In this document: in pieces, positions 4,553 to 46,619 of the stretch | How positions within the stretch are numbered: position 1 is the first letter of the stretch | Layout: each line of letters starts with the position of its first letter | NCBI GenBank assembly: GCA_043820105.1 | Contig: JBDREC010000004.1 | Span: forward strand, 5,682 to 69,681 | Length of the DNA: 64,000 nucleotides | Direction: 5' to 3' | From: Pseudomonadota bacterium | Lineage (GTDB): Bacteria; Bdellovibrionota_F; JAHFAK01; JBDREC01 | The notes under the pieces: model-generated | Databases searched by the model: none | What the model was told of the DNA's origin: nothing | The model's input: only the letters and a program-made list of their open reading frames with translations | Made by a program: the position numbers and the translations under genes

Positions 4553-6868
4553 ATGTTGCTTTTATATATTAAATCAACAGGTTATAAGATGGTTAAAAAT
4601 TCTGCTATTGCTTTTAAATTAAGGCTGGCAAGAAAAATGTTAATAATTACAGTTGCTTTGCTGGCTTTAACTATTCTGTTATTTTCAGGCTGTTTGCAAG
4701 GTGAAAATGGCCAGCCTAATTCAGGAACAAGCGGAAATGTGAATGATTCTGAAGGAATAGAGGAAGATAGTATTACAACAGAAGATGATTTAGGTATTGT
4801 TGATTCTGCAGATGTAACTGAGGCAATAGAAGATGCTATTGATAGTATAACATCTCCTGTAAATCTTCCGGTGCCTAGCGAAATAGATGAAGTTGATTAT
4901 GCTTTTACCATTTCTGCAAATCTCCCAGTAACAGACATTGAATCCTCGGCTAAGTTAAGTGATTTTAGTTTAATTTCTAGAAATGATATTATTTCCAGGA
5001 ATGACAATAATCCAGGAAATTCTTCATATTTATCTAAATCTAAAAAACTAAAATATTCAACTTTAGCTTCACCAGCTATAGCTTGTGTTAAGATTGAACA
5101 AGATAGAGTTAGCGGAGAGCTTACAACTAAAGCCTATATTGCAGAAGAAGATGGAACTGTTGTAATCTTTTGGGAGGATTTTCCAGATGAAGTAAATACA
5201 ACTTTTTCAATTTATGTAAAAGATGAAACTTATGGTTGGATACATTTTGAGGATATTGTTACTGAAAGTGATTTAGATGAAGTTTATCATTCAATCGATT
5301 TTTCTAGCTATAGTTCTTCAATTGATTTAGGAAGTTTAGCAATTGAAAACTCAAAACTTATTTCTTCTAGCTCTCTAAATTTAACAAGTTCTCCTGATCC
5401 TGTTGGAGGATTATCTTCTGTTTCTGAGTTTTATGCCTATGGGCACATTACTCAAAGAATAGGCACTGATGATTCAAATACTCTTTATGCAATTACTACT
5501 GATGGATCTGATGTTACAACATGGCTTTTTAATCAGTCACAATTTCTAGATGATGGATATACAAATAATGGTAATTCTGCAAATCTAATTATTACTCCAA
5601 GTGATCTGGCTATTGAGGGGTCCTTTAAACAAACAATTGTGGTTAGTGATGAAGATTATACTTCTTTTTACGCCACATTTTTTAATACCCATTTAATAGA
5701 TTCAACTCTAGATATTAATACCTCTAGTCCTGTATCTTATATGCCTCCAGATGCAATTCACTATGAAGCGGATGATTTTTTAAGAGGGAAACTTTTAGCA
5801 TTTGGGGATAGTCGGAACAAAATATTTTCAGCAGGTGCTTCCAAGTCAATAACAGGAGGGCATGGTGATTATGCTGTCTGGCATTCTTTTACAAGCTCAG
5901 GCATTCTGGTTTCTCCTGAGGTTTATCATGATAATGTGGAAGCAATAGCCCAAGGTATTTATTATGGAGGCACAACTGATGCTGATACAGATGGAACAAA
6001 CTTTGTAATTGCCAATAAGGGCGCTGGAGGAAAAAAGATTGTAGCCAGGTTAATAAATTCTTCCTATAGTATTACTACTACAAAAATATTTGAAGCAAGC
6101 TCAAGCATTTCAGATCCAAGAGTTGCCGTAAATAATTATGGCCATGGTATTATTGTTTTTAAGGCAGATGGAGATTTATATTACTCAATTATTGATACAA
6201 ATGAGGCAAGTATTTCAGATGCAATTCTTTTTGATCTTGCTTCTTTTAATTGTACTTCAGATGGATTTATAGACGTAGTTGTTTTAAACTCTGATAAAGT
6301 AATAATTAAAAATGGTTATAATGCACAGTCAAAAGTTTGTTTAATCGCCTCAGATTACTCTGAGGAGGGACTTGATTTTACAGACTCCTGGACAAAAAAT
6401 CCTTCAGTAGCTTCAAATTACTCAAAACTTGGCTCTATATATGATAAAGACATGCTTGCCTTAATCCACGGATGGCAGCCTGGTTATGGAGAAGCTCTTA
6501 AAATAACAAAATATAATAAAGATGGCTTATCTGATAATGAAAATGGAATTACCATTATAACTTCAGATAGTTCTACTGTCCGAGCTCCAAAGCTAACCAG
6601 TATAAGTGTTTCAGGTGATGCGCAAGGTCGAATTCTTGCTTCTTGGATTGCACAAGTTCCAAATGAAAGCACAGCTTATGTCTATGCAGTTGTTTTTACA
6701 GCCAATGGAGATGTTATTAATTCTGACGATGATAAATTTTTGGTTAATTCAGGAGTATTGAATTATCTTGAAAATGTTTCAGGAGCAATGCTTGATAATG
6801 GGAAATTTGTGATTACCTATACCTTGGCTGGTTCTACCAGTAACTATCTATACAACTTAAGCCTTTAG
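4553..6868 (+). CDS. Large lipoprotein of unknown function, member of the ISRND-motif family
   Basis: Strong RBS GGGAGGGG. Lipobox LLFSGC. Acidic/Ser-rich linker followed by LISRNDIISRND. No recognised catalytic domain. Confidence 0.6.
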   Translation: MLLLYIKSTGYKMVKNSAIAFKLRLARKMLIITVALLALTILLFSGCLQGENGQPNSGTSGNVNDSEGIEEDSITTEDDLGIVDSADVTEAIEDAIDSITSPVNLPVPSEIDEVDYAFTISANLPVTDIESSAKLSDFSLISRNDIISRNDNNPGNSSYLSKSKKLKYSTLASPAIACVKIEQDRVSGELTTKAYIAEEDGTVVIFWEDFPDEVNTTFSIYVKDETYGWIHFEDIVTESDLDEVYHSIDFSSYSSSIDLGSLAIENSKLISSSSLNLTSSPDPVGGLSSVSEFYAYGHITQRIGTDDSNTLYAITTDGSDVTTWLFNQSQFLDDGYTNNGNSANLIITPSDLAIEGSFKQTIVVSDEDYTSFYATFFNTHLIDSTLDINTSSPVSYMPPDAIHYEADDFLRGKLLAFGDSRNKIFSAGASKSITGGHGDYAVWHSFTSSGILVSPEVYHDNVEAIAQGIYYGGTTDADTDGTNFVIANKGAGGKKIVARLINSSYSITTTKIFEASSSISDPRVAVNNYGHGIIVFKADGDLYYSIIDTNEASISDAILFDLASFNCTSDGFIDVVVLNSDKVIIKNGYNAQSKVCLIASDYSEEGLDFTDSWTKNPSVASNYSKLGSIYDKDMLALIHGWQPGYGEALKITKYNKDGLSDNENGITIITSDSSTVRAPKLTSISVSGDAQGRILASWIAQVPNESTAYVYAVVFTANGDVINSDDDKFLVNSGVLNYLENVSGAMLDNGKFVITYTLAGSTSNYLYNLSL

Positions 6869-6992
6869 ATTTTTCTCTAATTTTTAATTTTGTAATATTA
6901 ATCACTATTGTTTCTTTTTATTGTATGATATAATTTATATATACACACATTTTTGTGTCTGATGCAGGGGAGCAATTTTAAGGGGGTAGAAA

Positions 6993-8483
6993 ATGGGGAA
7001 GTGCTGTATTTGTTTTATATCATTGTGTATTTTTCTTTCATGCTCGTCCTTCAATAACTTTGATTATCGATTTTTAGTTGGGTCTTCATCATCTGGCGAT
7101 GAGTCCTATTTAATTTTATCAGGTATTATAACCAGAAATGATCTGCAAAACATTGATAACATATTAACAAGAAATGATCTTTTTCTTAATCGTGAGATTC
7201 TTGAAGTAAATAATGTTGCTATTGATAGTTTAGGCAGTGATTCTGATGAAATTATTCAAAGAAATGATTTATCTGCCACTTTATCAGAAGACATTCTAAT
7301 TAAATCAACATCACTTTTCATGACTTGTGATGCAATTTTGTCAATTAAAAGCTCAAAAGGTTATGAAGAAAGTGATGAAATTAATCTCTATGATTCAAAT
7401 TTCTTATATGCTGATGTGGATTCAGATGGCTATTTTGAGATAAAGGTTTACGCCAGTTCTTACATCGCCCAGCTAACCAATTTTACAATTAGAAATGAAC
7501 TTACTGGAGATCCAATTGTTTCATTTAATTTTCAAAAGGGCAGTGCGCTTTTTGAAGGAATTGAAATGCAAGATGCTGACATCGATTTGGGTGAAATCAG
7601 GTTTAGTTCAGAAAGAGCCAGTATTGATATTAATGATATTCCTGATATTATTGGTATTGAAGAAATAGATGTAGAAGATTCAATTGATGATGAAGCATCA
7701 TTGGAAGCCGGTAGTGAAAACGCTCAAGGGGAAAATGTTTTGACAGATAAAAATGAAAATGAAGATGAAGAAGAAGTTGAGACATATCAGTCCTGCAATA
7801 ATTTAGATTCTATAGATAGCTTATTTTTATCTACTAATATTGATGAAAATGAAGGAAGTATAATCTCAGATTATTCATCTTCTGAAAATGAAGGAACATT
7901 ATACAATGGTTCTTGGGGAAATGGTTCTATTGTAGATGGTATGCAAACAACTTACTTTGATGGCAGCTCAACATTCATTCGTTTTCCTGATATTGGACCA
8001 GCCTTAGAGGATGAAATTACTGTTATGGCATGGGTAGATAGGGCCTCTATATCTTTAGGAGATACAATTATAAGTAAATGGAATATGGATCAAAATGATG
8101 GCGATTCTTTCTTTTTATCTGTTGGTTGGGATGCTGCTTCATTTATGGTTGATACCTGGAATGGATCATATAACGAAGGTGAAGCTATTCATATAAACTC
8201 TAATCGACAGTGGTATCACATTGCAGGTTCTTATACAAAAAACACAATTAAGCTTTATGTAAATGGAGAGCTAATTGGCAGTCAAAATATATCAGGTGAC
8301 GATTTAAAATATGATGCTACAATTCCTTATGATATTGGAAAACAATATAATCCAAATGATGAAGATAGTGAAGACAACTATTGGTTCAAGGGATATATAT
8401 CAGGAGTAAAGGTTTTTAATACAGAAATTTCTGAAGAAGCAATATCTGCATATTATGAGTGTATGGATAATTTTGTAGATTAA
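6993..8483 (+). CDS. Lipoprotein with C-terminal LamG/concanavalin A-like lectin domain, ISRND-motif family
   Basis: Lipobox FLSCSS. IITRNDL/ILTRNDL/IIQRNDL repeats. C-terminal YFDGSSTFIRFPD...TVMAWV...WYHIAGSYTKNTIKLYVNGELIGS matches the Laminin_G_3 pattern. Confidence 0.7.
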   Translation: MGKCCICFISLCIFLSCSSFNNFDYRFLVGSSSSGDESYLILSGIITRNDLQNIDNILTRNDLFLNREILEVNNVAIDSLGSDSDEIIQRNDLSATLSEDILIKSTSLFMTCDAILSIKSSKGYEESDEINLYDSNFLYADVDSDGYFEIKVYASSYIAQLTNFTIRNELTGDPIVSFNFQKGSALFEGIEMQDADIDLGEIRFSSERASIDINDIPDIIGIEEIDVEDSIDDEASLEAGSENAQGENVLTDKNENEDEEEVETYQSCNNLDSIDSLFLSTNIDENEGSIISDYSSSENEGTLYNGSWGNGSIVDGMQTTYFDGSSTFIRFPDIGPALEDEITVMAWVDRASISLGDTIISKWNMDQNDGDSFFLSVGWDAASFMVDTWNGSYNEGEAIHINSNRQWYHIAGSYTKNTIKLYVNGELIGSQNISGDDLKYDATIPYDIGKQYNPNDEDSEDNYWFKGYISGVKVFNTEISEEAISAYYECMDNFVD

Positions 8484-9505
8484 TTTTCTAAATAAAAGTC
8501 ATATATTTTTTTTACACCCGTTTCGTCAAAATCTTTATTAAAAATCATAATTTCATCAATAATACCGTAATAATGATCACCTAAACTTTCAAGACTTGCT
8601 ACATAATCTTCTTTAAAAACAGGACTACAGGCTTCATTGTCATTAATTAAAGATATGTCCTCTTGTCTGTTTTCAATTAATTCTCCGTTTAAAAAAAATG
8701 AAACTTCGAGGATATTTTCAGATATTGCTTTGACGCTAATTCCAACAAACTGAAATGTGTTTTTTTCAAAAGAATAATATGCATCTGTGTTTATATTTAA
8801 ACCACAGCCTTCTATTGATCCCAAATCAAGTCCTGGTCTAAATGATGGAAGGATGTTGCTGTTTTCATCTTGTTCTAAAGCAGCGATAAAAGAAAATGAT
8901 CCACCTCGAATAATTGTTTGTAGATTGTTTAAAATCCTTGTTTCAGTATCCAGACTAATCCACGCAAAGAAAGAAGCACTATCACCAAGCTTAAGACTGT
9001 TGCCAGTATTGCCGTTTACATCATGCATGATTTTTAAAGGATCTGTAAATCCATTTAAATAATAACATTCTCCGCTTGGGCATCTAGAGTTATCTTCAAT
9101 ATATTCATTATGATTTTCAAGATCAACCATTTCACCATATTCTTCAGTGTGCCATGTATGTGTATGGTCAGAAACCCCTATACTGCAGCCATTATGAAAG
9201 TAAAAAGTAAAATCAGTGTCCGCTGTATCATAATTTGGATCTGTTTTTACATACATGGAGTCTTCATAGGAGGTTCGCTTATCAAGATCAAATGAATAAT
9301 ATTCAATGAGTCCATCAACAAGGCCACATCCAATTTCAAATTGTTCACTGGTATCTTGGAGATTGCTTGATGAGCCAAATGGATTGTCTAAATTGCTTGA
9401 GCTACATGATTCTTCGTTGTTAAGCAAAAGTAAAAGTCCATTGGCATAAAGATAAAATGGAAGCAGTAAAAAAAGCGTGATTTTGATGCAGAATTTCATT
9501 TGCAC
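8480..9505 (-). CDS. Secreted LamG/concanavalin A-like domain protein
   Basis: Signal peptide MQMKFCIKITLFLLLPFYLYANG. LKLGDSASFFAWISLD...NTFQFVGISVK...VSFFLNGELIEN is a LamG-like fold signature. Confidence 0.65.
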   Translation of the reverse strand: MQMKFCIKITLFLLLPFYLYANGLLLLLNNEESCSSSNLDNPFGSSSNLQDTSEQFEIGCGLVDGLIEYYSFDLDKRTSYEDSMYVKTDPNYDTADTDFTFYFHNGCSIGVSDHTHTWHTEEYGEMVDLENHNEYIEDNSRCPSGECYYLNGFTDPLKIMHDVNGNTGNSLKLGDSASFFAWISLDTETRILNNLQTIIRGGSFSFIAALEQDENSNILPSFRPGLDLGSIEGCGLNINTDAYYSFEKNTFQFVGISVKAISENILEVSFFLNGELIENRQEDISLINDNEACSPVFKEDYVASLESLGDHYYGIIDEIMIFNKDFDETGVKKIYDFYLEN

Positions 9506-9794
9506 TCCGTATAAAATGTTTTGTGTAATTAATAACTTACAAGAATAATATATGCTTTTTGAATTCGGTTTTAAGTTTTATAACAAAGATTTTTAATAAT
9601 GTCAAATCATCAAAAAGTCAAAAAGTTGGCAGCCAACGTTCAATCCAAAATGGCTCACTCATTTTTAAGCTCATTCACACTTGACCTTTTATATGAAACT
9701 GATAATAAGCAAAATGCTGCAGACAAAAGCCTTAAGTTGTTAGCTGAAGGCTGATCGCTGAAAGCTGATTGCTTATTACTAATAGGTGCTAAAT

Positions 9795-10746: not shown

Positions 10747-10774
10747 CGTACAGCGTACAGTGTACAGCGTACGG
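10747..10774. repeat. Tandem heptamer array (CGTACAG)x4, degenerate, immediately 3' of the tdh stop codon
   Basis: cgtacag cgtacag tgtacag cgtacgg read directly from the sequence. Confidence 0.8.
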
Positions 10775-10799
10775 CGTGAAATTTATATGAGGTGAATTT

Positions 10800-11174
10800 G
10801 TGATTTTTGGTATTGGTGTTGATATAATTGAGGTAAGTAGGCTTGATAAAGAAGCTAAGATATCTGATAACTTCTTTAGTCGTGTTTTTACTGAAAAAGA
10901 AATTGAATATTGTGAGTCTAAGAAGTTTTCAGCTCAGCATTATGCTGGTAGATTTGCGGCTAAAGAAGCTTTTTTTAAAGCATTAGGGACAGGCTTAAGG
11001 GATGGATTGACCTGGAAAGATGTAGAGCTCACTAATGATGAACTTGGAAAACCAAGTCTATGTTTTTCAGGAAGAGCAAAAGAAATTATTAAAGAAAAAA
11101 ATATTAAAAATGCGCAAGTATCTTTGTCACATATAAAGAAGCTTGCTAAGGCATTTGTTATACTGGAGACTTAG
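10800..11174 (+). CDS. acpS: Holo-[acyl-carrier-protein] synthase (4'-phosphopantetheinyl transferase)
   Basis: MIFGIGVDIIEVSRL...FSAQHYAGRFAAKEAFFKALGTG is the canonical AcpS signature. GTG start with GAGGTGA RBS. Confidence 0.8.
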   Translation: MIFGIGVDIIEVSRLDKEAKISDNFFSRVFTEKEIEYCESKKFSAQHYAGRFAAKEAFFKALGTGLRDGLTWKDVELTNDELGKPSLCFSGRAKEIIKEKNIKNAQVSLSHIKKLAKAFVILET

Positions 11175-11285
11175 TTATAAGTTGTAAGTCGTAAGTCGTA
11201 AGTCATAAGTCGTAAGTCATAAGTCGTAAGTCGTAAGACATAAGACATTCTTACCACTTATAGCTTACCACTTACCACTTACCAC
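11175..11285. repeat. Inverted pair of heptamer arrays: (GTCGTAA/GTCATAA)x10 followed by (TTACCAC)x5
   Basis: Directly visible. Core GTAAG in arm 1 is complementary to CTTAC in arm 2, giving a periodic 5-bp-helix hairpin. Sits between the acpS stop and the RBS of the acs-like gene. Confidence 0.85.
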
Positions 11286-11304
11286 TTGCTCCAAAGGAGA
11301 CAAC

Positions 11305-13008
11305 ATGAACAATATTGGATCTTATGATGAAAAAGCTAGAGACTTTAATTGGTCAGATTCAGAAAAAGAGCTTGGTTATAAAGATGGTGATGTGATTAAT
11401 ATTGGATGGTATTGTACAGACAGAATTTGCGAAATGGGAAAAGCTGACAAGCTTGCTTTGATTTGGGAAGGAATGACTGGCGAAGAAAAAAAATTTACAT
11501 TTAATGATATTCGCATGGCCAGTAATACTATTGGAAACTACTTAAGAAACTTAGGAGTTGAATCAGGTGAAAGAGTTTGTTTATTCATGGACAAAGTTCC
11601 TGAGCTATATCTTGGCTTTTTGGGGGTTTTAAAAATAGGAGCGATTGCTCAACCTTTATTTTCAGCCTTTGGCGATGAATCACTGCATGTTAGACTTTCA
11701 AACGCTGAAACTTCTGTTGTTGTAACTCAACAAAAACATGTTAATAAGGTTAGAAAGATTCGAGATACTCTTCCATCATTAAAGCATATTATTATTGTTG
11801 ATTATAATGGAAAAAAACCTCTTCAAGAAAAAGAACATGCATTCTTTTTAGGAAATGAAACTCCAGTTGATAAATTTGATATTTTTAAAAGCAAAGCAGA
11901 AACTCCTTCTGTTTTACATTATACTTCAGGAACCACGGGTCAACCAAAGGGTGTTAAGCATGTTCATTATTCATTAATTTCTCAATATATTACAGCTAAA
12001 TGGATTCTTGATATTCAGGAAGATGATATTTATTGGTGCACAGCTGATCCTGGCTGGGTTACTGGAACTTCTTATGGAATAATTGGTGCCTGGTCAAATG
12101 GTGTTACTCAATGCGTGCTTGATAAAGGGTTTTCAGCTGAAAACTGGTATTCTTTCATGGAAAAACATAAAGTAACAAATTGGTATTCAGCTCCAACAGC
12201 CATTAGATCCCTTATGAAAGCAGGAATTGGGGCTGTAAAGAAATTTGATTTATCATCATTAAGACATCTAACATCAGTCGGTGAGCCTTTAAATGCTGAA
12301 GCTGTGGTTTGGTCAAAAGAAGCTTTTGGCAAAGCTTTTCATGATACTTACTGGCAAACAGAAACAGGTTCAATAATGGTAGCTAACTATCCTGGAATGG
12401 AAGTTAAGCCAGGCTCCATGGGAAAACCTTTTCCTGGAATAATTGGTGCGATTTTAGATGAAGAAACATATGAGCCAATTACTGAAGTAAATAAAATCGG
12501 AGCAATTGCTTTTAAACCAGGCTGGCCAGCAATGATGAGAACCTATTGGAACAATGAAGAAACATATCAAAAGAAATTTAAAAATGGTTGGTATCTAACT
12601 GGCGATAGATCTACTGTTGATAAAGATGGATACTTCTGGTTCACAGGACGCGATGATGATGTTATTAATACAGCAGGTCACTTAGTGTCGCCTTTTGAAG
12701 TTGAATCTGCCCTCTTAGAGCATGAAGCTGTAGCTGAGTCAGCAGTAGTAGCAAAACCAGATGATGTTAACATGGAAGTTGTTAAAGCCTTTGTAAGCTT
12801 AAAACCAGGCTTTGAACCAGATAAAGACTTAGAATTAAAAATCATGAATTTTATTAGAAAGAAACTATCACCTCTTGCAATGCCTCAAGAGATTGAATAT
12901 ATGGACAAGCTTCCAAAAACAAGGTCTGGTAAGATTATGAGAAGACTTTTAAAAGCACGGGAATGGGGTGAAGAAATTGGTGATACATCAACTTTAGAAG
13001 ATGATTAG
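11305..13008 (+). CDS. Acetyl-CoA synthetase family AMP-forming acyl-CoA (or acyl-ACP) ligase
   Basis: YTSGTTGQPKGV, IYWCTADPGWVTGTSY, YWQTETGS and C-terminal LPKTRSGKIMRRLLK...GDTSTLED closely track Acs-type enzymes. The protein is shorter than E. coli Acs at the N-terminus. Confidence 0.75.
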   Translation: MNNIGSYDEKARDFNWSDSEKELGYKDGDVINIGWYCTDRICEMGKADKLALIWEGMTGEEKKFTFNDIRMASNTIGNYLRNLGVESGERVCLFMDKVPELYLGFLGVLKIGAIAQPLFSAFGDESLHVRLSNAETSVVVTQQKHVNKVRKIRDTLPSLKHIIIVDYNGKKPLQEKEHAFFLGNETPVDKFDIFKSKAETPSVLHYTSGTTGQPKGVKHVHYSLISQYITAKWILDIQEDDIYWCTADPGWVTGTSYGIIGAWSNGVTQCVLDKGFSAENWYSFMEKHKVTNWYSAPTAIRSLMKAGIGAVKKFDLSSLRHLTSVGEPLNAEAVVWSKEAFGKAFHDTYWQTETGSIMVANYPGMEVKPGSMGKPFPGIIGAILDEETYEPITEVNKIGAIAFKPGWPAMMRTYWNNEETYQKKFKNGWYLTGDRSTVDKDGYFWFTGRDDDVINTAGHLVSPFEVESALLEHEAVAESAVVAKPDDVNMEVVKAFVSLKPGFEPDKDLELKIMNFIRKKLSPLAMPQEIEYMDKLPKTRSGKIMRRLLKAREWGEEIGDTSTLEDD

Positions 13009-13029: not shown

Positions 13030-13278
13030 ATGGATGAAATGAAAAAAGTTATATTAGACTATGTTTATGAAGAATATGTTGAAGATGAAGATGATGAAGT
13101 AACATATGATACTCCACTTATTTCAGGAGGCCTCGTTGACTCATTTTCAATGGTTTCATTAAAAAGATTTTTAGAAAATAAATATAACATCTCAATTCCA
13201 GATGAAGATGCTACCCCTGAGGCTTTTGATTCTGTTGATAAGATTTGTGTTTTAGTTAATAGATTTATTAATAAATAG
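13030..13278 (+). CDS. Acyl carrier protein-like (phosphopantetheine attachment)
   Basis: 82 aa, acidic, with GGLVDSFSMVSLKRFLE carrying the DS(L/F) Ser motif. Adjacent to an AMP-ligase, and acpS is nearby. Confidence 0.55.
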   Translation: MDEMKKVILDYVYEEYVEDEDDEVTYDTPLISGGLVDSFSMVSLKRFLENKYNISIPDEDATPEAFDSVDKICVLVNRFINK

Positions 13279-13340
13279 CTGTAAGCTGTAAGCTGTAAGC
13301 TGTAAGCTTTTCTTACCACTTACCACTTACTACTTACCAC
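13279..13340. repeat. Composite heptamer element (CTGTAAG)x4 + (TTACCAC)x4
   Basis: Directly visible after the ACP stop codon. The reverse complement of this element recurs at 28691-28754. Confidence 0.85.
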
Positions 13341-13360
13341 TTTTATCTCGGAGAGATATA

Positions 13361-14608
13361 ATGGCTTATACTGATGATATAAAAAAGGGTTACAAAGACG
13401 AACTTCAGGGCATAGCAGATGCAGGTCTTTTCAAAAGTGAACGCTTTATTCATGCAGCTCAAGATGCAGACATTGAAGTTGAATTTCCAGCTGGCGCGCC
13501 TATTAAAAAAGTTATAAATATGTGCGCGAATAACTATCTTGGTTTTTCAAGTGATCCTGAGATTGTTCAGGCTGCTCATAATGGTCTTGAAACAAGAGGT
13601 TATGGAATGAGCTCAGTTCGTTTTATTTGTGGAACTCAAGATATTCACAGAGAACTTGAACAAAAGGTTTCTGAATTTTTAGGCTGTGAAGACACAATAT
13701 TATTTCCATCCTGTATGGATGCTAATGCTGGTGTTTTTGAAGCTACTTTAGATGAACAAGATGTTATTATTTCAGATAGACTTGTGCATGCTTCTATCAT
13801 TGATGGCATAAGACTTGCCCCAGCTATGCATGATACTTTTAAACATTCCAATATGGAACATCTTGAAAGTAAATTACAACTGCATGCTGACAAAAGAAGA
13901 AAAGTGATCGTAACTGATGGTGTTTTCTCAATGGATGGTGATTGTGCTAAAATGGATGAAATCGTTGCACTTGGTGAAAAATATGGAGCTTTAGTTTTTT
14001 CTGATGAATCACATTCAACTGGTTTTATCGGCAAAACAGGAAAAGGTGTGCATGAAAAATGTGGTGTAATGGGCAAGATGGATATTATTACAACTACCTT
14101 TGGTAAAGCAATGGGCGGAGCAAGCGGCGGTTGTGTTTCAGGCAGACGTGAAATCGTTGAAATGTGTCGTCAAAAAGCAAGGCCTTATCTTTTCTCAAAT
14201 GCCATGGCTCCTGTAATTATTCAAGGTGTTTTAAAGGTTTTTGAAATTCTATCAGGTTCAACTGAAAGAAGAGATAAGCTGGAATGGAATGCAAATTATT
14301 GGAGACAAGGTCTAACGGATGCTGGCTTTGTATTAAAAGATGGAGATACTCCAATTGTTCCTGTTATGCTTTTTAATGCCAAGCTTTCTCAAGATTTCTC
14401 AATTGGTTTGTATGAAGAAGGAATTTATGCAATTGGATTTTTCTTTCCTGTTGTTCCAAAAGGACAAGCGAGAATCAGAACCCAGCTTTCAGCAGCTCAT
14501 ACAAAAGAGCATCTTGATAAAGCACTTGATGCATTTATTAAGGTGGGTAAAAAATATGAGATCCTAGGAAAAACCAAACAAGAAATCATTGAAATGTATG
14601 GAATGTAA
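13361..14608 (+). CDS. kbl: Glycine C-acetyltransferase (2-amino-3-ketobutyrate CoA ligase), alpha-oxoamine synthase family
   Basis: GLFKSERFI, SVRFICGTQDIHRELEQK, ASIIDGIRL, TDGVFSMDGD and GFFFPVVPKGQARIRTQLSAAHT are near-identical to conserved E. coli Kbl blocks. PLP-Lys region TTTFGKAMGGASGG. Confidence 0.8.
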   Translation: MAYTDDIKKGYKDELQGIADAGLFKSERFIHAAQDADIEVEFPAGAPIKKVINMCANNYLGFSSDPEIVQAAHNGLETRGYGMSSVRFICGTQDIHRELEQKVSEFLGCEDTILFPSCMDANAGVFEATLDEQDVIISDRLVHASIIDGIRLAPAMHDTFKHSNMEHLESKLQLHADKRRKVIVTDGVFSMDGDCAKMDEIVALGEKYGALVFSDESHSTGFIGKTGKGVHEKCGVMGKMDIITTTFGKAMGGASGGCVSGRREIVEMCRQKARPYLFSNAMAPVIIQGVLKVFEILSGSTERRDKLEWNANYWRQGLTDAGFVLKDGDTPIVPVMLFNAKLSQDFSIGLYEEGIYAIGFFFPVVPKGQARIRTQLSAAHTKEHLDKALDAFIKVGKKYEILGKTKQEIIEMYGM

Positions 14609-14726: not shown

Positions 14727-17009
14727 ATGAAGGCTGTTTTTCAATCATTAATTATTCCATTTGTTCTATTATTCTATCTACTTAGCTGTTCTGCTACTTT
14801 GAAGAATACAGATGATTCACCAGGAGATGAGTCAATTGGCATTTCTGACAATGATGACAGTACAATTGGTGATGATTTAAGTTTAAGTGATGAAAATTCT
14901 TCGGAAAATTTGGAAAGCTCTGATGCAAGCAATTTAGCTGATTCAAGTCTTTCTGCAGGGCAAAGCAATGCAAGTGCTCAGAATGTTTTGGCTTTTTCAG
15001 GGAGTCTTTCCCTTGATGGTATAATTTCAAGAAATGATACTGCAAATATTATAAGCAGAACTGATGTTATAAGTGCTGGTATTACTGTAAGTTCAGCCTA
15101 TAAGGGATTCAATAATTTTAAGTTTTCATCAAGTGCAGAAACTTATGTATTTAAAATTGTTTTAACATTAAATAACCTTGATGAAGGTGAAGTTAATTCT
15201 TATACAACTTACACAACATCAAGTGGGATTTTTAGTGCAAGTGCTGATATTGATTCACTTGGTGATAACACTATTGCAATTTTAGCAGTATATTTTCCGC
15301 AAGAAAGTACAACAGGAGAAATAGAATGGATTTTGCTTGATTATGTTGTTGAACAGGATGAGCTAGCCCTGGTCAATATTTCTGATGAACTTATAGAAGC
15401 GAATTCAACAGTGGATTATGGGACAATATCAAATTCTACGAATGAAAATGGACAGGACATTTTGCAAACCTCAGGAATTATTATTGATGATGAATTAGAG
15501 TTTATGGCTAATAATGGACCCAACTGGCTTTCTAACACCGATATCCGTATTCATCATACTGTTTTTGCTGATGAAACCTTTGAGTATAATATGTCAACTT
15601 TTGCTTTGGATTTGGATGAAAATTTATTTGGTGTTTTTGGTGAATCATGGCTTACAATAGCTGAAAGTGATACTATTGCAGGCAAAGCAATATTAACAGC
15701 TGCTCCACCCACAAGTGCCTCTGGGACATATAAAGCAAAGGTCTGGGTAAAGGATCCCTCTGACAATATTAATCAAACAAACAGAAAATTTCATGTTGCC
15801 AAGAAATGGGATTTTGATAGTTCAACACAGTGTGTTCCTGAAATAGCGTCAGATCCAACTACCCAGTTTAAAAACAATGCATCTTCATATATGCGAATTA
15901 ATAAATATTATACAGGTATGTTACTGGCTTGGAGCTCAAATTTTGGTAATCAAGGCAAATATCAGACAGTAGCCTTAGGAGTAAATAAATATTGCAGCTT
16001 AATGACAGATGGAATCATAAAATTAAAAGCAGATGCTACTTATGACTATGAGCTGATGTATTTAGATACTTATCAAAACCAAGCTCAAGATAAAAACCAT
16101 GTTTTGGCAGTTTCAAAAATAACTTTTGACTTTGGGATAAAGGGGCTGCATTGGGCGATTTACGATTTTGATAGTATCAGTAATGGACAGGCAGAAATTT
16201 TAGTTGAAAATAGTTACATGCTGGAGGAAGGAGATAGTCTTTGGAATCCTAATGGAGGCTCAAATATTAATGGCGAAGGTATTTTTTGTTGGCCTGAAAC
16301 CAATGATGGTTTAACATCTAATAAGTATCTTACCTATAATTTAAGACAGCCTGAATTTTATTCGAGCACCAGAACCTTTGATTTTGATGATACTCCGACT
16401 CCTTTAAAGGTAAACTGTACCAAGTTGCTTTCAGATCAATATGCCTTTGTTGGTGGGGCATCTGATAATATTACTATTTTTTCATTGAGCGCAGAAGACG
16501 GCACTTTGCAAGTGGATTCACAAACGCAAATAGATCCCTCTGGAAATCATAATAGCGGAATAACCATGAGCTCTGTATATGATGGCAATCATTTAGCAAT
16601 AAATTATTTTATTCAAAACGATGCTGAACAGCATCTTTATGGATTTACAATTAATAATTCAGGAGACATCGTAGCAGACAGAGTAAATCTTTTTCAGGAT
16701 AGTGGAATTCTGATCGGACAAAATAATGTTGATCCAATTTTTTCAAGTGGGAGTTCAAATGGCTTAATGGCTACAAGTTTTGCTATTGGAAGTGAAGATA
16801 TAGGTATGCTTTATTTAATGATGAGTTTAACTGACAACTATTCTTATGAGCCTGTTGGATTTCAGCTTTTTTACAATCCTGAGGCCAGCAACATTACTTC
16901 CTATTATCCTGCTCCTTTAATCTTGGCCAGTGGAGAAATTGTATTTTTCTATCAGTATCAGGCTGGGTCAAGCATTGGAAAACTATTTATTATTCCAACC
17001 AGTGACTAG
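14727..17009 (+). CDS. Large lipoprotein of unknown function, ISRND-motif family
   Basis: RBS GGAGGGGGAG. Lipobox LLSCSA. Acidic/Ser linker then GIISRNDTANIISRTDVIS. Confidence 0.6.
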   Translation: MKAVFQSLIIPFVLLFYLLSCSATLKNTDDSPGDESIGISDNDDSTIGDDLSLSDENSSENLESSDASNLADSSLSAGQSNASAQNVLAFSGSLSLDGIISRNDTANIISRTDVISAGITVSSAYKGFNNFKFSSSAETYVFKIVLTLNNLDEGEVNSYTTYTTSSGIFSASADIDSLGDNTIAILAVYFPQESTTGEIEWILLDYVVEQDELALVNISDELIEANSTVDYGTISNSTNENGQDILQTSGIIIDDELEFMANNGPNWLSNTDIRIHHTVFADETFEYNMSTFALDLDENLFGVFGESWLTIAESDTIAGKAILTAAPPTSASGTYKAKVWVKDPSDNINQTNRKFHVAKKWDFDSSTQCVPEIASDPTTQFKNNASSYMRINKYYTGMLLAWSSNFGNQGKYQTVALGVNKYCSLMTDGIIKLKADATYDYELMYLDTYQNQAQDKNHVLAVSKITFDFGIKGLHWAIYDFDSISNGQAEILVENSYMLEEGDSLWNPNGGSNINGEGIFCWPETNDGLTSNKYLTYNLRQPEFYSSTRTFDFDDTPTPLKVNCTKLLSDQYAFVGGASDNITIFSLSAEDGTLQVDSQTQIDPSGNHNSGITMSSVYDGNHLAINYFIQNDAEQHLYGFTINNSGDIVADRVNLFQDSGILIGQNNVDPIFSSGSSNGLMATSFAIGSEDIGMLYLMMSLTDNYSYEPVGFQLFYNPEASNITSYYPAPLILASGEIVFFYQYQAGSSIGKLFIIPTSD

Positions 17010-17096: not shown

Positions 17097-17858
17097 ATGC
17101 TTTTCAAATCAATAAAATATTTAATTTTAATTTTAATTTTTGCTCCTTTAGTTGTTAACGCCATGACAGCTGAAGAAATTATAAATAAAGCAAAAAGTGT
17201 CATGAATCAGGATACTTCAAAATCCAGAAGTAAAATGATAATAGTTACAGACAAAGGAAAAGAAAGGATTTTTATCTCAGATTCTTTTTCAAAAAATAAA
17301 GGTGAAAAAAATCTAATAATTTACGTTGAACCCAGCAGGGTCAAAGGACAAGCAGTATTAATGCTTAATAATGCTGATGATATTTGGACCTATTTTCCAA
17401 ACACTGGAAGAGTTCGAAAGATGGCAACACATGCAAAGAAAAGAAAAATGCAGGGATCGGATTTTTCTTATGAAGACATGGGTTCAGGTGATGGATTTTT
17501 AGAAATTTTTAATGCAAAAAGATTAGATGATGAACAAAAAGATGGGTATGATTGTTATAAACTCGAATTAACAAAGAAAAAAGACAAAGACACTTCTTAT
17601 TCAAAGGTTATGCTTTGGATAATTAAATCAAATTACTTGCCAGTTTTCATACAATACTTTGACGAAAAATCCCCGACTTTATTATTAAAAGAATTAACCT
17701 TAAGTGATATTAAAACAATTCAGGGAATCCCAACTCCAATGAAAATGAAGATGGAAAATAAATTAGATAATTCCAAAACAGAAATGGAAACAATCTCAAT
17801 TGAATACGGAGTGGAGCTCAGTGATAACATGTTCACAGAAAAAGGATTGAAAAAATGA
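17097..17858 (+). CDS. LolA-like outer membrane lipoprotein-sorting family protein, partner of the MMPL exporter
   Basis: Signal peptide. About 250 aa with a basic/aromatic-rich pattern. Placed directly upstream of DUF1302-like and MMPL genes, as in conserved RND-associated trios. Confidence 0.5.
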   Translation: MLFKSIKYLILILIFAPLVVNAMTAEEIINKAKSVMNQDTSKSRSKMIIVTDKGKERIFISDSFSKNKGEKNLIIYVEPSRVKGQAVLMLNNADDIWTYFPNTGRVRKMATHAKKRKMQGSDFSYEDMGSGDGFLEIFNAKRLDDEQKDGYDCYKLELTKKKDKDTSYSKVMLWIIKSNYLPVFIQYFDEKSPTLLLKELTLSDIKTIQGIPTPMKMKMENKLDNSKTEMETISIEYGVELSDNMFTEKGLKK

Positions 17859-19060: not shown

Positions 19061-19080
19061 AACTTTGCAGTTTTAAAAAA

Positions 19081-19146
19081 GTATTCAGTATTTAGTATTC
19101 AGGAATTTATAAACTGACTGAATACCGAATACCAAATACTAAATAC
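19081..19146. repeat. Inverted heptamer arrays (GTATTCA)x3 ... (GAATACC/AAATACT)x4
   Basis: Directly visible between the DUF1302-like stop codon and the MMPL start codon. Confidence 0.85.
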
Positions 19147-19162
19147 CAAAATGGAGTTTTTT

Positions 19163-26224: not shown

Positions 26225-26293
26225 TTTTTGTCAAGAAAAAGAGTTTATTCTTTTATGGAAAGTTGATTAATATAGATTATTTATTATCCTAAA

Positions 26294-26330
26294 TTTTGAA
26301 TTTTGAATTTTGAATCTTGAATTTTGAATC
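26294..26330. repeat. Tandem heptamer array (TTTTGAA)x5
   Basis: Directly visible, immediately 3' of the transketolase-family stop codon. Confidence 0.85.
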
Positions 26331-28671: not shown

Positions 28672-28690
28672 GTAAATACTCCGTATTTAA

Positions 28691-28754
28691 GTGGTAAGTG
28701 GTAAGTGGTAAGTGGTAAGTGACAAAGCTTACAGCTTACAGCCTACAGCTTACG
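28691..28754. repeat. Composite heptamer element (GTGGTAA)x4 + (GCTTACA)x4, reverse complement of the element at 13279-13340
   Basis: Directly visible. Lies 20 nt upstream of the transketolase start codon, that is, in its 5'UTR. Confidence 0.85.
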
Positions 28755-28823: not shown

Positions 28824-28851
28824 GTATTTAGTATTCAGTATTCAGTATTCA
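28824..28851. repeat. Tandem heptamer array (GTATTCA)x4
   Basis: Directly visible. Confidence 0.85.
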
Positions 28852-28866
28852 GGATAGGAGATCCTT

Positions 28867-44426: not shown

Positions 44427-46619
44427 CTAATTGGATTCTGCGTATTGAAATATTAGGGAAATAATATCAGGAGATGTATTGGGGTTATCAATAAGGCATA
44501 CTATGGGAAGATTAACTTTATATTCTTCAGTTTGATATGGTATTGCTGTTGTTACATTGACAATTGGAGTATCAAGAGAAATGCTTGTGCCAATGGAATC
44601 ATACAATTGGCTTCCGCTTGATATGGTAAGGGGTTTTGTAATTACTGATCTTTCACTTCCATTTGAAATGTCAACAGTGTATGTTGCAACTTTAAAAGCC
44701 GAATCAAGCCAGATGTTATTAAAAGTATTGGCACTGTCAACTTCTATAACCTCAACTGTTCTTTCTATTTTTGTTGGAATATCAAGATTATTGCTTTGAT
44801 TTAATATTGCTGCTTTCAGTATTTTTTTGCCATTGTTTTCTACTACATAAGAAGCTATTATTACCTTTGCTTCTTTAGCATGGTATAATCTTGGTGGATT
44901 GACCATTTCACTATCATCGAGGCTTATTTCTTCGATACCAACAGTATTCATTTCAGTGTCATTTTCTAAGGACATGACAGTAATTGTATTTCCATGAATC
45001 ATATATAATCTTTTTTTGCTTAAAGCAAAGTCAATTTCATTAAGACTTGTAATGTTGCTGGCAAGTTGTATTGGTTCCTTAAATTCTAATTTTACACCAT
45101 CTTCAATTTGAATTAGACTAATTGGAAATGCTAAGGCAGTTTGTTCTGTTGAGCTGAGAACTACAATATAGCCATAGTTAAGATTTTCTTGGCATAGGAT
45201 TTTTATCTCTTTGCTAAAAGAAGTTGATCCTTTTGTGACAGTATGTTCATTGCTGATATTACCTTCTCCTACTTTCAGGAGATTAAAAATATGTTTAGTG
45301 TTAGTTGCCTCAGCTGATATAAAATAAGTTGAGGTTTGATACTTAATTGCATCTGATAAAAATATTTTATCATCTGATGTTATGTTTTGAGAACTGCTTT
45401 CTGTGTCTTCAATACTTAAAGTTGTGATTACTTCAGGTTGTTGCTCTTTATATTTATTTAATAATATGTATTTTGTTGCAAAGAGTCCATTCGGCTTTTC
45501 TTCTTTGGCAGCAATAAAATATGAGTTAGGGTGTAAATACTTTATTTTAGGAGAAAAAGCCAAGCTTGATAAATCAGTTAATTCATATATTGTGCTTTTA
45601 TTAGTTTCAAATACGGGAATAGATTCGATATTTGTAGTTGTTGTGATTAATACATTATCTATTACCATAAATATAGAAAGTCGAAGTCTTGAAAAGTTAT
45701 TTTCACTGTTTGTTGAAAGGCTAATATTTGCAATTATATCCATTGTGCTATCAGCATAACTTTCTTTTTCCAGGCTTACTGAAATTTCAGAGCAGGTTCC
45801 ATATATACATTCATAATTAAAGTATATATGGTCAGTTGAGGCCACGCCATCTAATAGAGTCTTTGATAATGAATCATTTTCTGCTAAGTAAAGGTTGTGA
45901 TAAATCATAGCTTCTTTTTCATAAGAACTTACAGCTGTTTCATTTGAGAGTGAATACTCAAAATCAGCGTCAGCTGTTGATACATTAAGGTCTCCAAGGT
46001 CAATGTCACTTGAGCCATCTGATAAGGCGTCTGAAAGCTTGAAAATATCATTTAATGTTGCAATTCTTTCTTCATAATATTCTCCATCTGCATCAAGCAT
46101 TGGAAGATAAACAGAAACAAAGTGATATTCTTCGTCTTCGTCTAATGCAACTGAAAAATAACCACTTGAATTTAAAACCGCGTTAGGACTTGACTCATCT
46201 AATGTCAGGGTTTCAGTGATATCGCTGTTAAGTGAATGTACCTTAATAATCAGTGCTAGATTATCACTTGTTATTTCACTGCATTTTAATGCAGTGCTTT
46301 TGGGTGCTTTGGTAATATCAGATCTGGTAATAATATCTGTGCCTGTATCTTCATTTGAGTCTGTTCTTGTAATTATTCCCATATCATAAAGATCAGTTCT
46401 TGTGATTATTGTATTATCAGCAGATAGAGTGCCCAGGTCGTTATTATTGATAAGTTCTATTGTTTCTTCTAGATCTATGGTTCCGCTTATTGAGTAATCA
46501 GCAGAAGTGTTTGGGGTGTTTCCATTGTTTTCTTCTGAAGAAGTGAAAATTGTACAAGAATTGATAGAGATTGAGATTATGATTAAAATTAAGCTTTTTG
46601 TAAGTTGAATCTTGCTCAA
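44427..46619 (-). CDS. Large lipoprotein of unknown function, ISRND/TRTD-motif family
   Basis: Lipobox ISINSC. IITRTDLYDMGIITRTDSNEDTGTDIITRSDI near the N-terminus. Confidence 0.6.
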   Translation of the reverse strand: MSKIQLTKSLILIIISISINSCTIFTSSEENNGNTPNTSADYSISGTIDLEETIELINNNDLGTLSADNTIITRTDLYDMGIITRTDSNEDTGTDIITRSDITKAPKSTALKCSEITSDNLALIIKVHSLNSDITETLTLDESSPNAVLNSSGYFSVALDEDEEYHFVSVYLPMLDADGEYYEERIATLNDIFKLSDALSDGSSDIDLGDLNVSTADADFEYSLSNETAVSSYEKEAMIYHNLYLAENDSLSKTLLDGVASTDHIYFNYECIYGTCSEISVSLEKESYADSTMDIIANISLSTNSENNFSRLRLSIFMVIDNVLITTTTNIESIPVFETNKSTIYELTDLSSLAFSPKIKYLHPNSYFIAAKEEKPNGLFATKYILLNKYKEQQPEVITTLSIEDTESSSQNITSDDKIFLSDAIKYQTSTYFISAEATNTKHIFNLLKVGEGNISNEHTVTKGSTSFSKEIKILCQENLNYGYIVVLSSTEQTALAFPISLIQIEDGVKLEFKEPIQLASNITSLNEIDFALSKKRLYMIHGNTITVMSLENDTEMNTVGIEEISLDDSEMVNPPRLYHAKEAKVIIASYVVENNGKKILKAAILNQSNNLDIPTKIERTVEVIEVDSANTFNNIWLDSAFKVATYTVDISNGSERSVITKPLTISSGSQLYDSIGTSISLDTPIVNVTTAIPYQTEEYKVNLPIVCLIDNPNTSPDIISLIFQYAESN

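What the first reader, a model, noticed from the sequence alone, without database searches (positions are those of the whole stretch)
4553..8483. Paralogous family of large lipoproteins sharing N-terminal [IL][IL][ST]R[NT]D repeats
Four large secreted or lipobox proteins in this window carry the same short repeated motif in their first 60-160 residues. 4553-6868 has LISRNDIISRND. 6993-8483 has IITRNDL, ILTRNDL and IIQRNDL. 14727-17009 has IISRNDTANIISRTDVIS. 44427-46619 has IITRTDLYDMGIITRTDSNEDTGTDIITRSDI. In each case the motif follows an acidic/Ser-rich linker after the lipobox. The C-terminal bodies differ (one is LamG). This looks like a shared N-terminal module of unknown role, such as sorting, anchoring or a processing site. 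I do not recognise it as a named domain.
Basis: seen in the sequence. Interest (0 to 1): 0.55.

Follow-up and report, generated by a model that had tools for sequence, protein, structure and literature searches.

The report
Repeated IISRND tag in orphan lipoproteins
Four otherwise unrelated predicted lipoproteins of an uncultured low-GC bacterium each carry 2-3 copies of a sharply conserved six-residue peptide (I-I-S/T-R-N/T-D) between their flexible acidic tether and their first folded domain; it is real and undescribed, and probably a recognition or cleavage tag, but its function could not be established.

Summary
The motif [IL][IL][STQ]R[NTS]D occurs 10 times in the window. All 10 copies lie in residues 45-151 of four ORFs: A 4553-6868, B 6993-8483, C 14727-17009 and D 44427-46619(-). 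About 0.04 copies are expected by chance. A position matrix scores the copies at 23-29 bits; the next best site in the window scores 9.9, which is noise level. The copies differ at synonymous sites, are not DNA repeats and are not selected as DNA palindromes, so conservation is at the peptide level.

All four proteins have a signal peptide ending in a Cys. The lipobox is canonical in A and B and near-canonical in C and D. A 27-92 residue acidic or Ser-rich tether follows, almost free of Lys and Arg. Then come the motifs, then a beta-rich segment. The C-terminal bodies are not detectably paralogous and have no homologues. No Pfam, NCBIfam or PDB match covers the motif. Database and pattern scans found no family elsewhere.

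Best reading (inferred, not shown): a lineage-specific short linear motif read by a shared envelope factor. I favour an Arg-directed processing or shedding site. A non-cleaved docking or sorting motif and a purely structural element are close rivals. Interest is moderate, because the evidence comes from one metagenome-assembled genome only.

The parts
4553..6868 (+). Gene A (771 aa; GenBank MFH1726908.1, ABIA04_00630): predicted lipoprotein with 2 motif copies and an orphan body
   Evidence: ORF. Canonical lipobox LFSG|C, Cys47. Singleton in the 15-billion-protein collection. No Pfam, NCBIfam or PDB match.
4694..4969 (+). A: acidic tether (residues 48-139)
   Evidence: 92 aa, D+E 0.24, K+R 0.01.
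4970..5005 (+). A: motif copies A1 LISRND and A2 IISRND, directly adjacent
   Evidence: 23.0 and 28.4 bits. These are the only Arg residues between Cys47 and 30 aa past the last motif.
6993..8483 (+). Gene B (496 aa; MFH1726909.1): predicted lipoprotein with 3 motif copies and a C-terminal LamG domain (nt 7959-8447)
   Evidence: ORF. Lipobox FLS|C, Cys17. Laminin_G_3 at residues 323-485, E 6e-19. Singleton.
7125..7142 (+). B1 IITRND
   Evidence: 29.3 bits.
7161..7178 (+). B2 ILTRND
   Evidence: 24.2 bits.
7251..7268 (+). B3 IIQRND
   Evidence: 25.0 bits.
14727..17009 (+). Gene C (760 aa; MFH1726916.1, ABIA04_00670): predicted lipoprotein with 2 motif copies and an orphan body. A LolA_like / unknown / MMPL gene set (17097-21856) follows on the same strand
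   Evidence: Near-canonical lipobox LLS|C, Cys21. No homologue except itself among 5.8 billion proteins. Neighbours.
14790..15020 (+). C: acidic/Ser-rich tether (residues 22-98)
   Evidence: 77 aa, D+E 0.21, K+R 0.01.
15021..15065 (+). C1 IISRND and C2 IISRTD, separated by 3 residues
   Evidence: 28.0 and 24.9 bits. Only Arg residues in this region.
44427..46619 (-). Gene D (730 aa; MFH1726936.1, ABIA04_00775): predicted lipoprotein with 3 motif copies and an orphan body. A secreted HExxH metalloprotease-like gene (42389-44251) lies directly downstream
   Evidence: Non-canonical lipobox INS|C, Cys22. The only hit in the profile search was itself. Singleton. HETGH in the neighbour.
46410..46553 (-). 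D: acidic tether (residues 23-70)
   Evidence: 48 aa, D+E 0.19, K+R 0.00.
46317..46409 (-). D1 IITRTD (46392-46409), D2 IITRTD (46359-46376) and D3 IITRSD (46317-46334)
   Evidence: 28.0, 28.4 and 23.1 bits. Only Arg residues in this region.

Best explanation
The hexapeptide I-I-[S/T]-R-[N/T]-D is usually preceded by G, N or D and followed by L, I or V. I read it as a lineage-specific short linear motif kept by purifying selection at the peptide level. It is present in 2-3 copies with variable spacing, at the junction between a disordered, acidic, Lys/Arg-free lipoprotein tether and the first beta-rich folded domain of four otherwise unrelated envelope proteins. I propose that one shared trans-acting envelope factor reads it. 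My favoured version is an endoprotease that cuts at the invariant Arg, which would detach the mature body from its lipidated acidic pro-segment (maturation or shedding); the extra copies would act as redundant sites. Shown: the motif exists, its statistics, its position, its peptide-level conservation, and the absence of any known domain. Inferred: that the tether is disordered, that a partner exists, and that cleavage occurs.
For: 1. There are 10 crisp copies against 0.04 expected, with nothing between 23 bits and the 9.9-bit noise level.
2. 40% of codon pairs that encode the same residue use different codons, and TRF finds no DNA repeat at the sites.
3. Gaps between copies are variable (0, 3, 5, 6, 8 and 24 aa) and so is copy number. 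In A the flanks are polar and low-complexity on both sides. This is typical of linear motifs, not of a fixed fold.
4. The copies always lie after the tether and 12-27 aa before a Cys-containing beta segment in A, B and D.
5. In A, C and D the motif Arg residues are the only Arg between the lipid-anchor Cys and 30 aa past the last motif. The tethers hold 3 Lys+Arg in 244 aa; about 28 would be expected from my own estimate of the window's Lys and Arg frequencies, a figure not computed in any call.
6. The bodies are unrelated or very distant, so the motif is what these proteins share.
7. There are precedents for short cleavage motifs in such positions. Type V pilins of P. gingivalis are lipoprotein precursors freed by Arg-gingipain at Arg46 and Arg49 (PMC8512630). 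M. hyopneumoniae adhesins are cut at S/T-X-F|X-D/E inside disordered regions (PMC3322551).
8. Candidate secreted proteases are encoded nearby: a Trypsin_2+TPR protein at 32470-34056 and an HETGH metalloprotease-like protein directly downstream of D.
Against: 1. There is no experimental or comparative evidence of cleavage.
2. Only one genome is available, and orthologues are absent, so conservation across species cannot be tested.
3. Known lipoprotein maturation sites are usually single, not 2-3 copies. Multivalency fits a binding motif at least as well.
4. The depletion of basic residues is a general property of acidic linkers, so 'the only Arg' is weak evidence.
5. The [S/T]-x-x-D-hydrophobic part matches the generic helix N-capping box plus hydrophobic staple. 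Low-confidence AF2 models put a helix start (B) or a beta strand (C2) on the motif, which favours a structural role.
6. The nearby proteases are linked to the motif only by proximity.
Confidence: 0.35

Rival explanations
1. A non-cleaved docking, sorting or anchoring motif. The copies bind a common envelope partner by avidity. The partner could be a TPR or LolA-like protein, an outer-membrane protein or a cell-wall polymer. Binding would hold or route these lipoproteins at a defined place, for example surface export or retention.
For: Multivalency with variable spacing. Invariant charged (R, D) and hydrophobic (I-I) positions. Location in a flexible tether. Disordered N-terminal linkers are known to matter for lipoprotein sorting (bioRxiv 10.1101/2021.01.05.425367), and a short export signal exists in Bacteroidota (PMC5080379). 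A LolA_like protein and an MMPL transporter follow gene C, and a TPR protein is encoded in the window.
Against: Known lipoprotein sorting signals lie within a few residues of the Cys, whereas these motifs lie 28-99 residues away. One canonical lipoprotein in the window lacks the motif. No partner has been identified.
Confidence: 0.25
2. A structural element of a diverged, lineage-specific N-terminal fold. Each copy would be a strand end followed by a helix or turn N-cap (hydrophobic staple plus S/T-x-x-D capping box). The last copy would form the first strand of the beta sandwich that follows. On this view the motif is conserved for folding or self-assembly, not for recognition.
For: h-[S/T]-x-x-D-h matches the capping-box plus hydrophobic-staple grammar (established knowledge). 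7 of 10 copies are followed by L, I or V. The same grammar explains the look-alike hits in CBS domains (GIISRKDAVRAILTRTD) and in the helical repeats of P0004 (EEIVSRTDL). AF2 places a helix from Arg48 in B and a strand on C2 paired with the next strand. B shows a 6-residue hydrophobic periodicity over residues 45-80. There is weak homology of the post-motif domain.
Against: The invariance of Arg and the restriction of position 5 to N, T or S are not explained by capping. Spacing and copy number vary, and in A the two copies are flanked by low-complexity sequence on both sides. The models have pLDDT 32 and 49 and find no significant fold match.
Confidence: 0.25
3. Calcium-binding loops of the EF-hand or dockerin type. 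G-I-I-T-R-N-D-L resembles loop positions 6-13, as in calmodulin G-T-I-T-T-K-E-L.
For: The surroundings are acidic. 4 of 10 copies have Gly at position 6, and Ile at position 8, S/T at 9 and Asp at 12 fit the pattern.
Against: The liganding positions 1, 3 and 5 are not conserved. Only 1 of 10 copies has D/N/S at all three, and none passes the strict pattern. A conserved Arg at position 10 is not an EF-hand feature. There are no EF-hand or dockerin Pfam hits.
Confidence: 0.05
4. A DNA- or RNA-level element. The codons of I-I-S-R-N-D are mutually reverse-complementary (ATY/RAT, TCT/AGA), so the peptide could be a by-product of an 18-bp palindromic protein-binding site or of a spreading repeat.
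For: A1 and C1 are self-complementary at 7 of 9 positions.
Against: The total self-complementarity is 47 of 90 pairs, no more than expected from the peptides and the window's codon usage (48.8 +/- 3.3). Thr variants break the palindrome. Third-codon positions vary freely. There are no TRF repeats at the sites.
Confidence: 0.02

Closest known systems
Arg-gingipain maturation site of type V pilin lipoprotein precursors (FimA Arg46, Mfa1 Arg49; Porphyromonas gingivalis)
   Same: A lipidated precursor, with an Arg in the N-terminal segment between the lipid anchor and beta-sandwich domains. Cleavage frees the body from the membrane (PMC8512630).
   Different: The pilin site is a single site with no I-I-S/T-R-N/T-D consensus. 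The organism is Bacteroidota. The pilin families are recognised by Pfam, and none is hit here. The bodies here are 500-770 aa and heterogeneous. Cleavage has not been shown.
S/T-X-F|X-D/E endoproteolytic motif of Mycoplasma hyopneumoniae P97/P102 adhesins
   Same: A short motif with S/T upstream and an acidic residue at P2'. It lies in disordered regions of surface proteins and is shared by several proteins (PMC3322551).
   Different: P1 is Phe there, not Arg. The register is different. The host is a wall-less Mollicute. The motif is not repeated in tandem.
Bacteroidota lipoprotein export signal (LES)
   Same: A short peptide signal in the N-terminal region of lipoproteins that decides their fate (PMC5080379).
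   Different: According to PMC5080379, as I recall it (the position was not checked in the paper here), the LES lies directly after Cys+1 and is a single negatively charged patch. Here the motifs lie 28-99 residues from the Cys, in 2-3 copies, and carry an invariant Arg.
CBS-domain G-h-h-[S/T]-x-x-[D/N] strand-to-helix motif, or the generic helix capping box with hydrophobic staple
   Same: The same local pattern. Pattern scans pulled out CBS proteins with GIISRKD...ILTRTD.
   Different: No CBS Pfam hit. Copies are spaced 6-30 residues start to start, whereas a CBS domain is about 60 residues. The context is extracytoplasmic low-complexity sequence.
Intrinsically disordered N-terminal linkers of outer-membrane lipoproteins
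   Same: A long flexible tether after the lipid anchor (bioRxiv 10.1101/2021.01.05.425367).
   Different: Those linkers are described without a conserved sequence motif. Here a crisp repeated hexapeptide ends the tether.

Membership tests
Bacterial lipoprotein (PROSITE PS51257-type lipobox) | No D/E/R/K in the 6 preceding residues, then [LIVMFWSTAG]2-[LIVMFYSTAGCQ]-[AGS]-C near the N-terminus | tested here: inconclusive
   A and B pass the strict pattern. C fails only at -4 (Tyr) and D only at -2 (Asn); both pass a relaxed pattern. Lipidation itself cannot be tested here.
Any curated domain or motif family (Pfam-A, NCBIfam) | Profile match covering the motif region | tested here: not met
   No family at E<=0.1 covers residues 45-151 of A-D. 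The one hit there, an IF-6 model on B residues 27-80 at 19.5 bits against a cut-off of 333, is spurious.
CBS domain | About 60-residue beta-alpha-beta-beta-alpha unit (PF00571), usually in pairs, containing G-h-h-[S/T]-x-x-[D/N] | tested here: not met
   The local pattern is present, with Gly at -1 in 4 of 10 copies. There is no PF00571 hit, and copies are only 6-30 residues apart start to start.
EF-hand / dockerin Ca2+ loop | D-x-[DN]-x-[DNS]-G-x-[ILV]-x-x-x-[DE] with liganding residues at positions 1, 3 and 5 | tested here: not met
   No copy passes the strict pattern. Only C1 has D/N/S at positions 1, 3 and 5.
Bacteroidota lipoprotein export signal | Acidic patch at positions +2 to +5 after the lipidated Cys | tested here: not met
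   Residues after the Cys are LQGE, SSFN, SATL and TIFT. The motifs lie 28-99 residues downstream.
Type V pilin (FimA/Mfa-like) | Lipobox, Arg/Lys maturation site, and two transthyretin-like domains recognised by fimbrillin profiles | tested here: not met
   A lipobox and Arg residues are present. No fimbrillin Pfam or NCBIfam hit. The TafC hit of B (37 bits against a cut-off of 410) overlaps the LamG region of B (residues 224-489 against 323-485) and I attribute it to that domain. Fold search was not significant.
Left-handed beta-helix hexapeptide repeat | [LIV]-[GAED]-x2-[STAV]-x repeated over many turns (PF00132) | tested here: not met
   No Hexapep hit. A 6-residue periodicity is seen only in B residues 45-80; spacing in C and D is 9, 11 and 14.
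   BLASTP best pair is C-D at E 0.27. A-C gives E>=1.7 despite Smith-Waterman z 4.7. The post-motif domain gives z 2-3.6. These are hints only.

The most novel reading that the evidence does not exclude
The hexapeptide is a previously undescribed, multi-copy maturation or sorting tag for lipoproteins. An Arg-centred signal at the end of an acidic tether would direct a dedicated envelope protease or receptor to release, export or anchor a set of otherwise unrelated surface proteins in an uncultivated low-GC lineage. It would be a lipoprotein counterpart of sortase-type or gingipain-type processing signals.
Probability: 0.3. Interest if true: 0.6.

Novelty: new variant of a known kind. Interest (0 to 1): 0.4.

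Why it matters
Short peptide signals that decide the fate of lipoproteins after the Lol step (surface export, shedding, maturation) are known for only a few lineages. Examples are the Bacteroidota LES and gingipain processing of type V pilins. A crisp, repeated, Arg-centred tag shared by unrelated orphan lipoproteins would be a new example. It would also give a handle for finding the processing or receptor protein and the whole set of client proteins in an uncultured lineage. Its value is limited for now: it is seen in one metagenome-assembled genome, no orthologues are available, and there is no functional evidence.

Tried and rejected
1. Chance or low complexity is rejected.
2. A DNA tandem repeat or recent duplication is rejected. 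TRF finds nothing at the sites, mean nucleotide identity between copies is 74%, and 40% of codon pairs encoding the same residue differ.
3. DNA palindrome selection is rejected: 47 self-complementary pairs observed against 48.8 +/- 3.3 expected.
4. Known domains: Pfam, NCBIfam and PDB sequence searches were negative.
5. Homologue searches found nothing. C has only itself. The motif-only, X-masked profile gave 3 word-sharing candidates and none at E<=10. A multiplexed alignment of D, A and the B N-terminus returned only D. A and B did not reappear in that search even though they were in the query, so it is uninformative for those two.
6. An exhaustive HMMER search with a motif profile against 1.84 billion representatives gave 3 hits: B itself, a Vibrio repeat protein and a helical-repeat protein. 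A, C and D themselves fell below threshold, so this search cannot exclude other proteins with only 2-3 bare copies.
7. The degenerate tandem-motif DNA pattern gave 7 hits in GTDB representative genomes and 28 in JGI metagenomes. They were chance or out-of-frame hits, CBS domains, an 18-nt satellite (L031), a heparinase-like protein, and one Clostridia transglutaminase-like protein with a C-terminal IISRTD/IISRND/IIDRSD tail (L003/L004). The source genome is not in those collections.
8. Exact-protein contig look-ups failed three times, so the rest of the 157,935-bp contig and of the genome could not be scanned.
9. tblastn against plasmids found nothing.
10. AF2 gave unusable models: B as a single sequence had pLDDT 32, and the module with a 4-sequence alignment had pLDDT 48.6 and pTM 0.44. 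Foldseek against PDB gave no hit below E 0.03 and only generic Ig-like sandwiches.
11. The TafC hit is a haloarchaeal fimbrial family; the hit overlaps B's LamG region and I attribute it to that domain, so it is irrelevant.


Full report
**Observation**

The window has 32% G+C. It contains four long ORFs whose products carry the quoted strings.
- A, 4553-6868 (+), has LISRND and IISRND at residues 140 and 146.
- B, 6993-8483 (+), has IITRND, ILTRND and IIQRND at residues 45, 57 and 87.
- C, 14727-17009 (+), has IISRND and IISRTD at residues 99 and 108.
- D, 44427-46619 (-), has IITRTD, IITRTD and IITRSD at residues 71, 82 and 96.

A six-frame scan of every stop-to-stop ORF of at least 20 aa with a looser pattern finds these ten copies and nothing else. 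From composition, 0.036 copies are expected in the 18,166 residues of window proteins. In 2000 shuffles of the four proteins the mean was 0.005 and the maximum 1. A position matrix scores the ten copies at 23.0-29.3 bits. The next best site in any window protein reaches 9.9 bits, which equals the mean maximum of shuffled proteomes. The motif is therefore real, sharply defined, and without degenerate relatives in the window.

**Level of selection**

- The copies use different codons: ATT/ATA/ATC, TCT/TCC/TCA/AGC, ACC/ACA, AGA/AGG and GAT/GAC.
- 79 of 196 codon pairs that encode the same residue differ, and mean nucleotide identity between copies is 74%.
- Tandem Repeats Finder reports nothing at these positions.
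- I noticed that the codons of I-I-S-R-N-D are mutually reverse-complementary, so the peptide could have been a shadow of an 18-bp palindrome. The observed self-complementarity (47 of 90 pairs) is no higher than the peptides and the window's codon usage predict (48.8 +/- 3.3).

Conservation is therefore at the peptide level.

**Anatomy**

- Each protein begins with a hydrophobic signal sequence ending in Cys. A (LFSG|C) and B (FLS|C) satisfy a PROSITE-type lipobox rule. C (LLS|C, with Tyr at -4) and D (INS|C) satisfy only a relaxed rule.
- Between the Cys and the first motif lie 92, 27, 77 and 48 residues. These stretches are rich in Asp, Glu, Ser, Asn and Gly and nearly free of basic residues (K+R 0.00-0.04).
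- In A, C and D the motif arginines are the only Arg from the Cys to 30 residues beyond the last motif.
- Gaps between copies are 0, 6, 24, 3, 5 and 8 residues.
- After the last copy comes a short Lys/Ser-containing stretch. In A, B and D a Cys follows 12-27 residues later. Then comes a beta-rich segment with an S-[SD]-G-[YI]-F signature.
- The residue before the motif is G, N, D, E, S or T. The residue after it is L, I or V in 7 of 10 copies.

**Are the proteins paralogues?**

- All-against-all BLASTP of 42 window proteins finds no significant pair among A-D; the best is C-D at E 0.27.
- Smith-Waterman with shuffling gives only hints. For the 160 residues after the motifs, z is 3.6 (C-D), 3.05 (B-D), 2.3 (A-D) and 2.0 (A-C).
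- For the remaining bodies, A-C gives z 4.7 and every other pair gives at most 0.9.
- BLASTP of A against C gives collinear segments, but with E of 1.7 or more.
- Only B has a recognisable domain, LamG.

'Paralogous family' is therefore not established. A shared, highly diverged N-terminal module joined to different bodies is the most that can be said.

**Outside the window**

- The four proteins are singletons in a 15-billion-protein collection. They are annotated as hypothetical or LamG proteins of a 'MAG: Pseudomonadota bacterium' (MFH1726908.1, MFH1726909.1, MFH1726916.1, MFH1726936.1) on a 157,935-bp contig.
- C has no homologue but itself. A profile search led by D returned only D.
- No PDB sequence relative exists.
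- A motif profile searched exhaustively against 1.84 billion representatives returned three proteins. One was B. The second was a Vibrio protein with five 29-residue repeats ending in ELISRND. The third was a protein with 58-residue helical repeats containing EEIVSRTDL. A, C and D fell below threshold, so this search cannot detect bare 2-3 copy carriers.
- A degenerate DNA pattern for two motifs within 30 nt was specific in the window: it matched B and C, with 0 matches in shuffles.
- That pattern gave 7 hits in 185,579 representative genomes and 28 in JGI metagenomes. On inspection, most were out of frame or inside tiny ORFs. The rest were CBS domains (GIISRKDAVRAILTRTD), an 18-nt satellite and a heparinase-like protein.
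- One hit was a Clostridia transglutaminase-like protein whose C-terminal tail reads IISRTD...IISRND...IIDRSD.
- The source genome is not in these collections, and exact-protein contig look-ups failed. The rest of the genome therefore could not be scanned.

**Structure**

- AF2 on B alone was useless (pLDDT 32).
- With the four-sequence module alignment it gave an all-beta model (pLDDT 48.6, pTM 0.44). In that model copy C2 is the first strand of a sandwich.
- Foldseek found no significant match: best E 0.04, TM about 0.2, generic Ig-like folds.

These models are not evidence either way.

**Comparison with known motifs**

- The core h-[S/T]-x-x-D-h is the classical hydrophobic staple plus capping box at a strand-to-helix transition (established knowledge). 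That explains the CBS and helical-repeat look-alikes.
- It also resembles positions 6-13 of EF-hand or dockerin loops. However, the liganding positions 1, 3 and 5 are not conserved; no copy passes the strict pattern.
- Neither pattern explains the invariant Arg or the restriction of position 5 to N, T or S.
- The Bacteroidota lipoprotein export signal, as I recall it, sits next to the Cys and is a single signal (PMC5080379; position not re-checked in the paper). Here the motifs lie 28-99 residues away.

**Mechanism**

The features point to a short linear motif read by a shared trans-acting factor:
- crisp conservation in otherwise unalignable sequence;
- variable spacing and copy number;
- placement in a flexible, charged tether just before the folded body;
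- presence in proteins with unrelated bodies.

I favour an Arg-directed processing or shedding site (0.35). The arginines are the only tryptic-type sites in the tether, and the position is where a cut would free the body from its lipidated acidic pro-segment. There are precedents: type V pilin lipoprotein precursors are cut by Arg-gingipain (PMC8512630), and mycoplasma adhesins carry the S/T-X-F|X-D/E motif in disordered regions (PMC3322551). Secreted protease candidates lie in the window: a Trypsin_2+TPR protein at 32470-34056, and an HETGH protein at 42389-44251 directly downstream of D.

A non-cleaved docking or sorting motif (0.25) fits the multivalency at least as well. A structural role as cap or strand of a diverged N-terminal fold (0.25) cannot be excluded. 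Ca2+ loops (0.05) and a nucleic-acid element (0.02) are unlikely. None of the steps beyond anatomy and statistics has been shown.

**Verdict**

This is a real, undescribed, lineage-restricted peptide motif. It is a new variant of the known kind 'short signals in lipoprotein N-terminal regions'. Interest is moderate (0.4), because everything rests on four orphan proteins of one metagenome-assembled genome and no function could be tested.

Noticed in passing
window 11173-11287, 13277-13342, 28688-28753 (minus-strand sense); also 9741-9773, 10747-10777, 19080-19150, 26292-26329, 28824-28924, 30926-30957, 31114-31144, 52594-52681, 55640-55668, 57457-57533: Many intergenic 7-bp tandem arrays of 4-11 copies. 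Upstream of at least three housekeeping-type genes (starts at 11305, 13361 and 28671 on the minus strand) the leader is (GTAAGTC)n or (GTAAGCT)n, then (CTTACCA)n, then the RBS and ATG. The two arrays are 5-6/7 complementary per unit and fold into a long hairpin with periodic mismatches (-45.6 kcal/mol, z -7.0 for 11165-11310; z -2.4 for 13265-13365). There is no Rfam match. They are reminiscent of cyanobacterial STRR heptamers, but here they form paired leader structures.
   Followed up: partly
L003 6387-6446 and L004 5701-5760 (Clostridia / Eubacteriales MAGs): A 257-263 aa transglutaminase-like protein (Transglut_core, E 1e-7). I saw no obvious signal peptide in its N-terminus, by eye only. 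It ends in a tail with three similar units: KIRIISRTD, KIKIISRND and KINIIDRSD. This is the only in-frame tandem occurrence of the motif found in 185,579 representative genomes with the codon-restricted pattern.
   Followed up: partly
P0003 (Vibrio sp. L3-7, WP_145569599.1) residues ~540-690: Five tandem 29-residue repeats, EPLSDDD[SF]IELQSTTNEVK[VA]AELISRNDTS. An acidic stretch followed by LISRND recurs in an unrelated hypothetical protein.
   Followed up: no
L031 around 2293-2328 (JGI metagenome Ga0209628_10055556): An 18-nt DNA satellite whose reading frame spells IITRTD many times with decayed copies (IITHTD, IITRAD). It is a DNA repeat, not a protein motif.
   Followed up: no
window 7125-7232 (B residues 45-80): Strict 6-residue periodicity of aliphatic residues: IITRND LQNIDN ILTRND LFLNRE ILEVNN VAIDSL. 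This suggests a short beta-meander or solenoid-like stretch in B only. It is not seen in A, C or D.
   Followed up: partly
window 17097-21856: Directly downstream of gene C, on the same strand, lie a LolA_like 'outer membrane lipoprotein-sorting protein' (E 2e-53), a 401-aa protein without a Pfam match, and a 901-aa MMPL/sterol-sensing-type transporter. This may be an operon with C.
   Followed up: no
window 29648-30145 and 30421-30924: Two tandem paralogous genes (63% identity) for type IV pilin or pseudopilin-like proteins with N-terminal [20 protein letters not shown] / LTLLELMIAVAIIGIISAIA segments.
   Followed up: no
window 22760-25159 (-) and 58626-59285 (+): Other predicted secreted proteins without the motif. 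The first is a 799-aa canonical lipoprotein (LVG|C) with an acidic N-terminal region and a MopE-type metal-binding motif. The second is a 219-aa Asp-rich protein with thrombospondin type 3 repeats and an N-terminal hydrophobic segment ending LIS|C; it did not register in the lipobox scan.
   Followed up: no
window 8480-9505 (-): A 341-aa secreted protein whose stop region overlaps the end of B by 4 nt in convergent orientation. It has no Pfam hit. I did not compare it with B's LamG part, and the all-against-all BLASTP lists no pair between it and B at E<=1.
   Followed up: no
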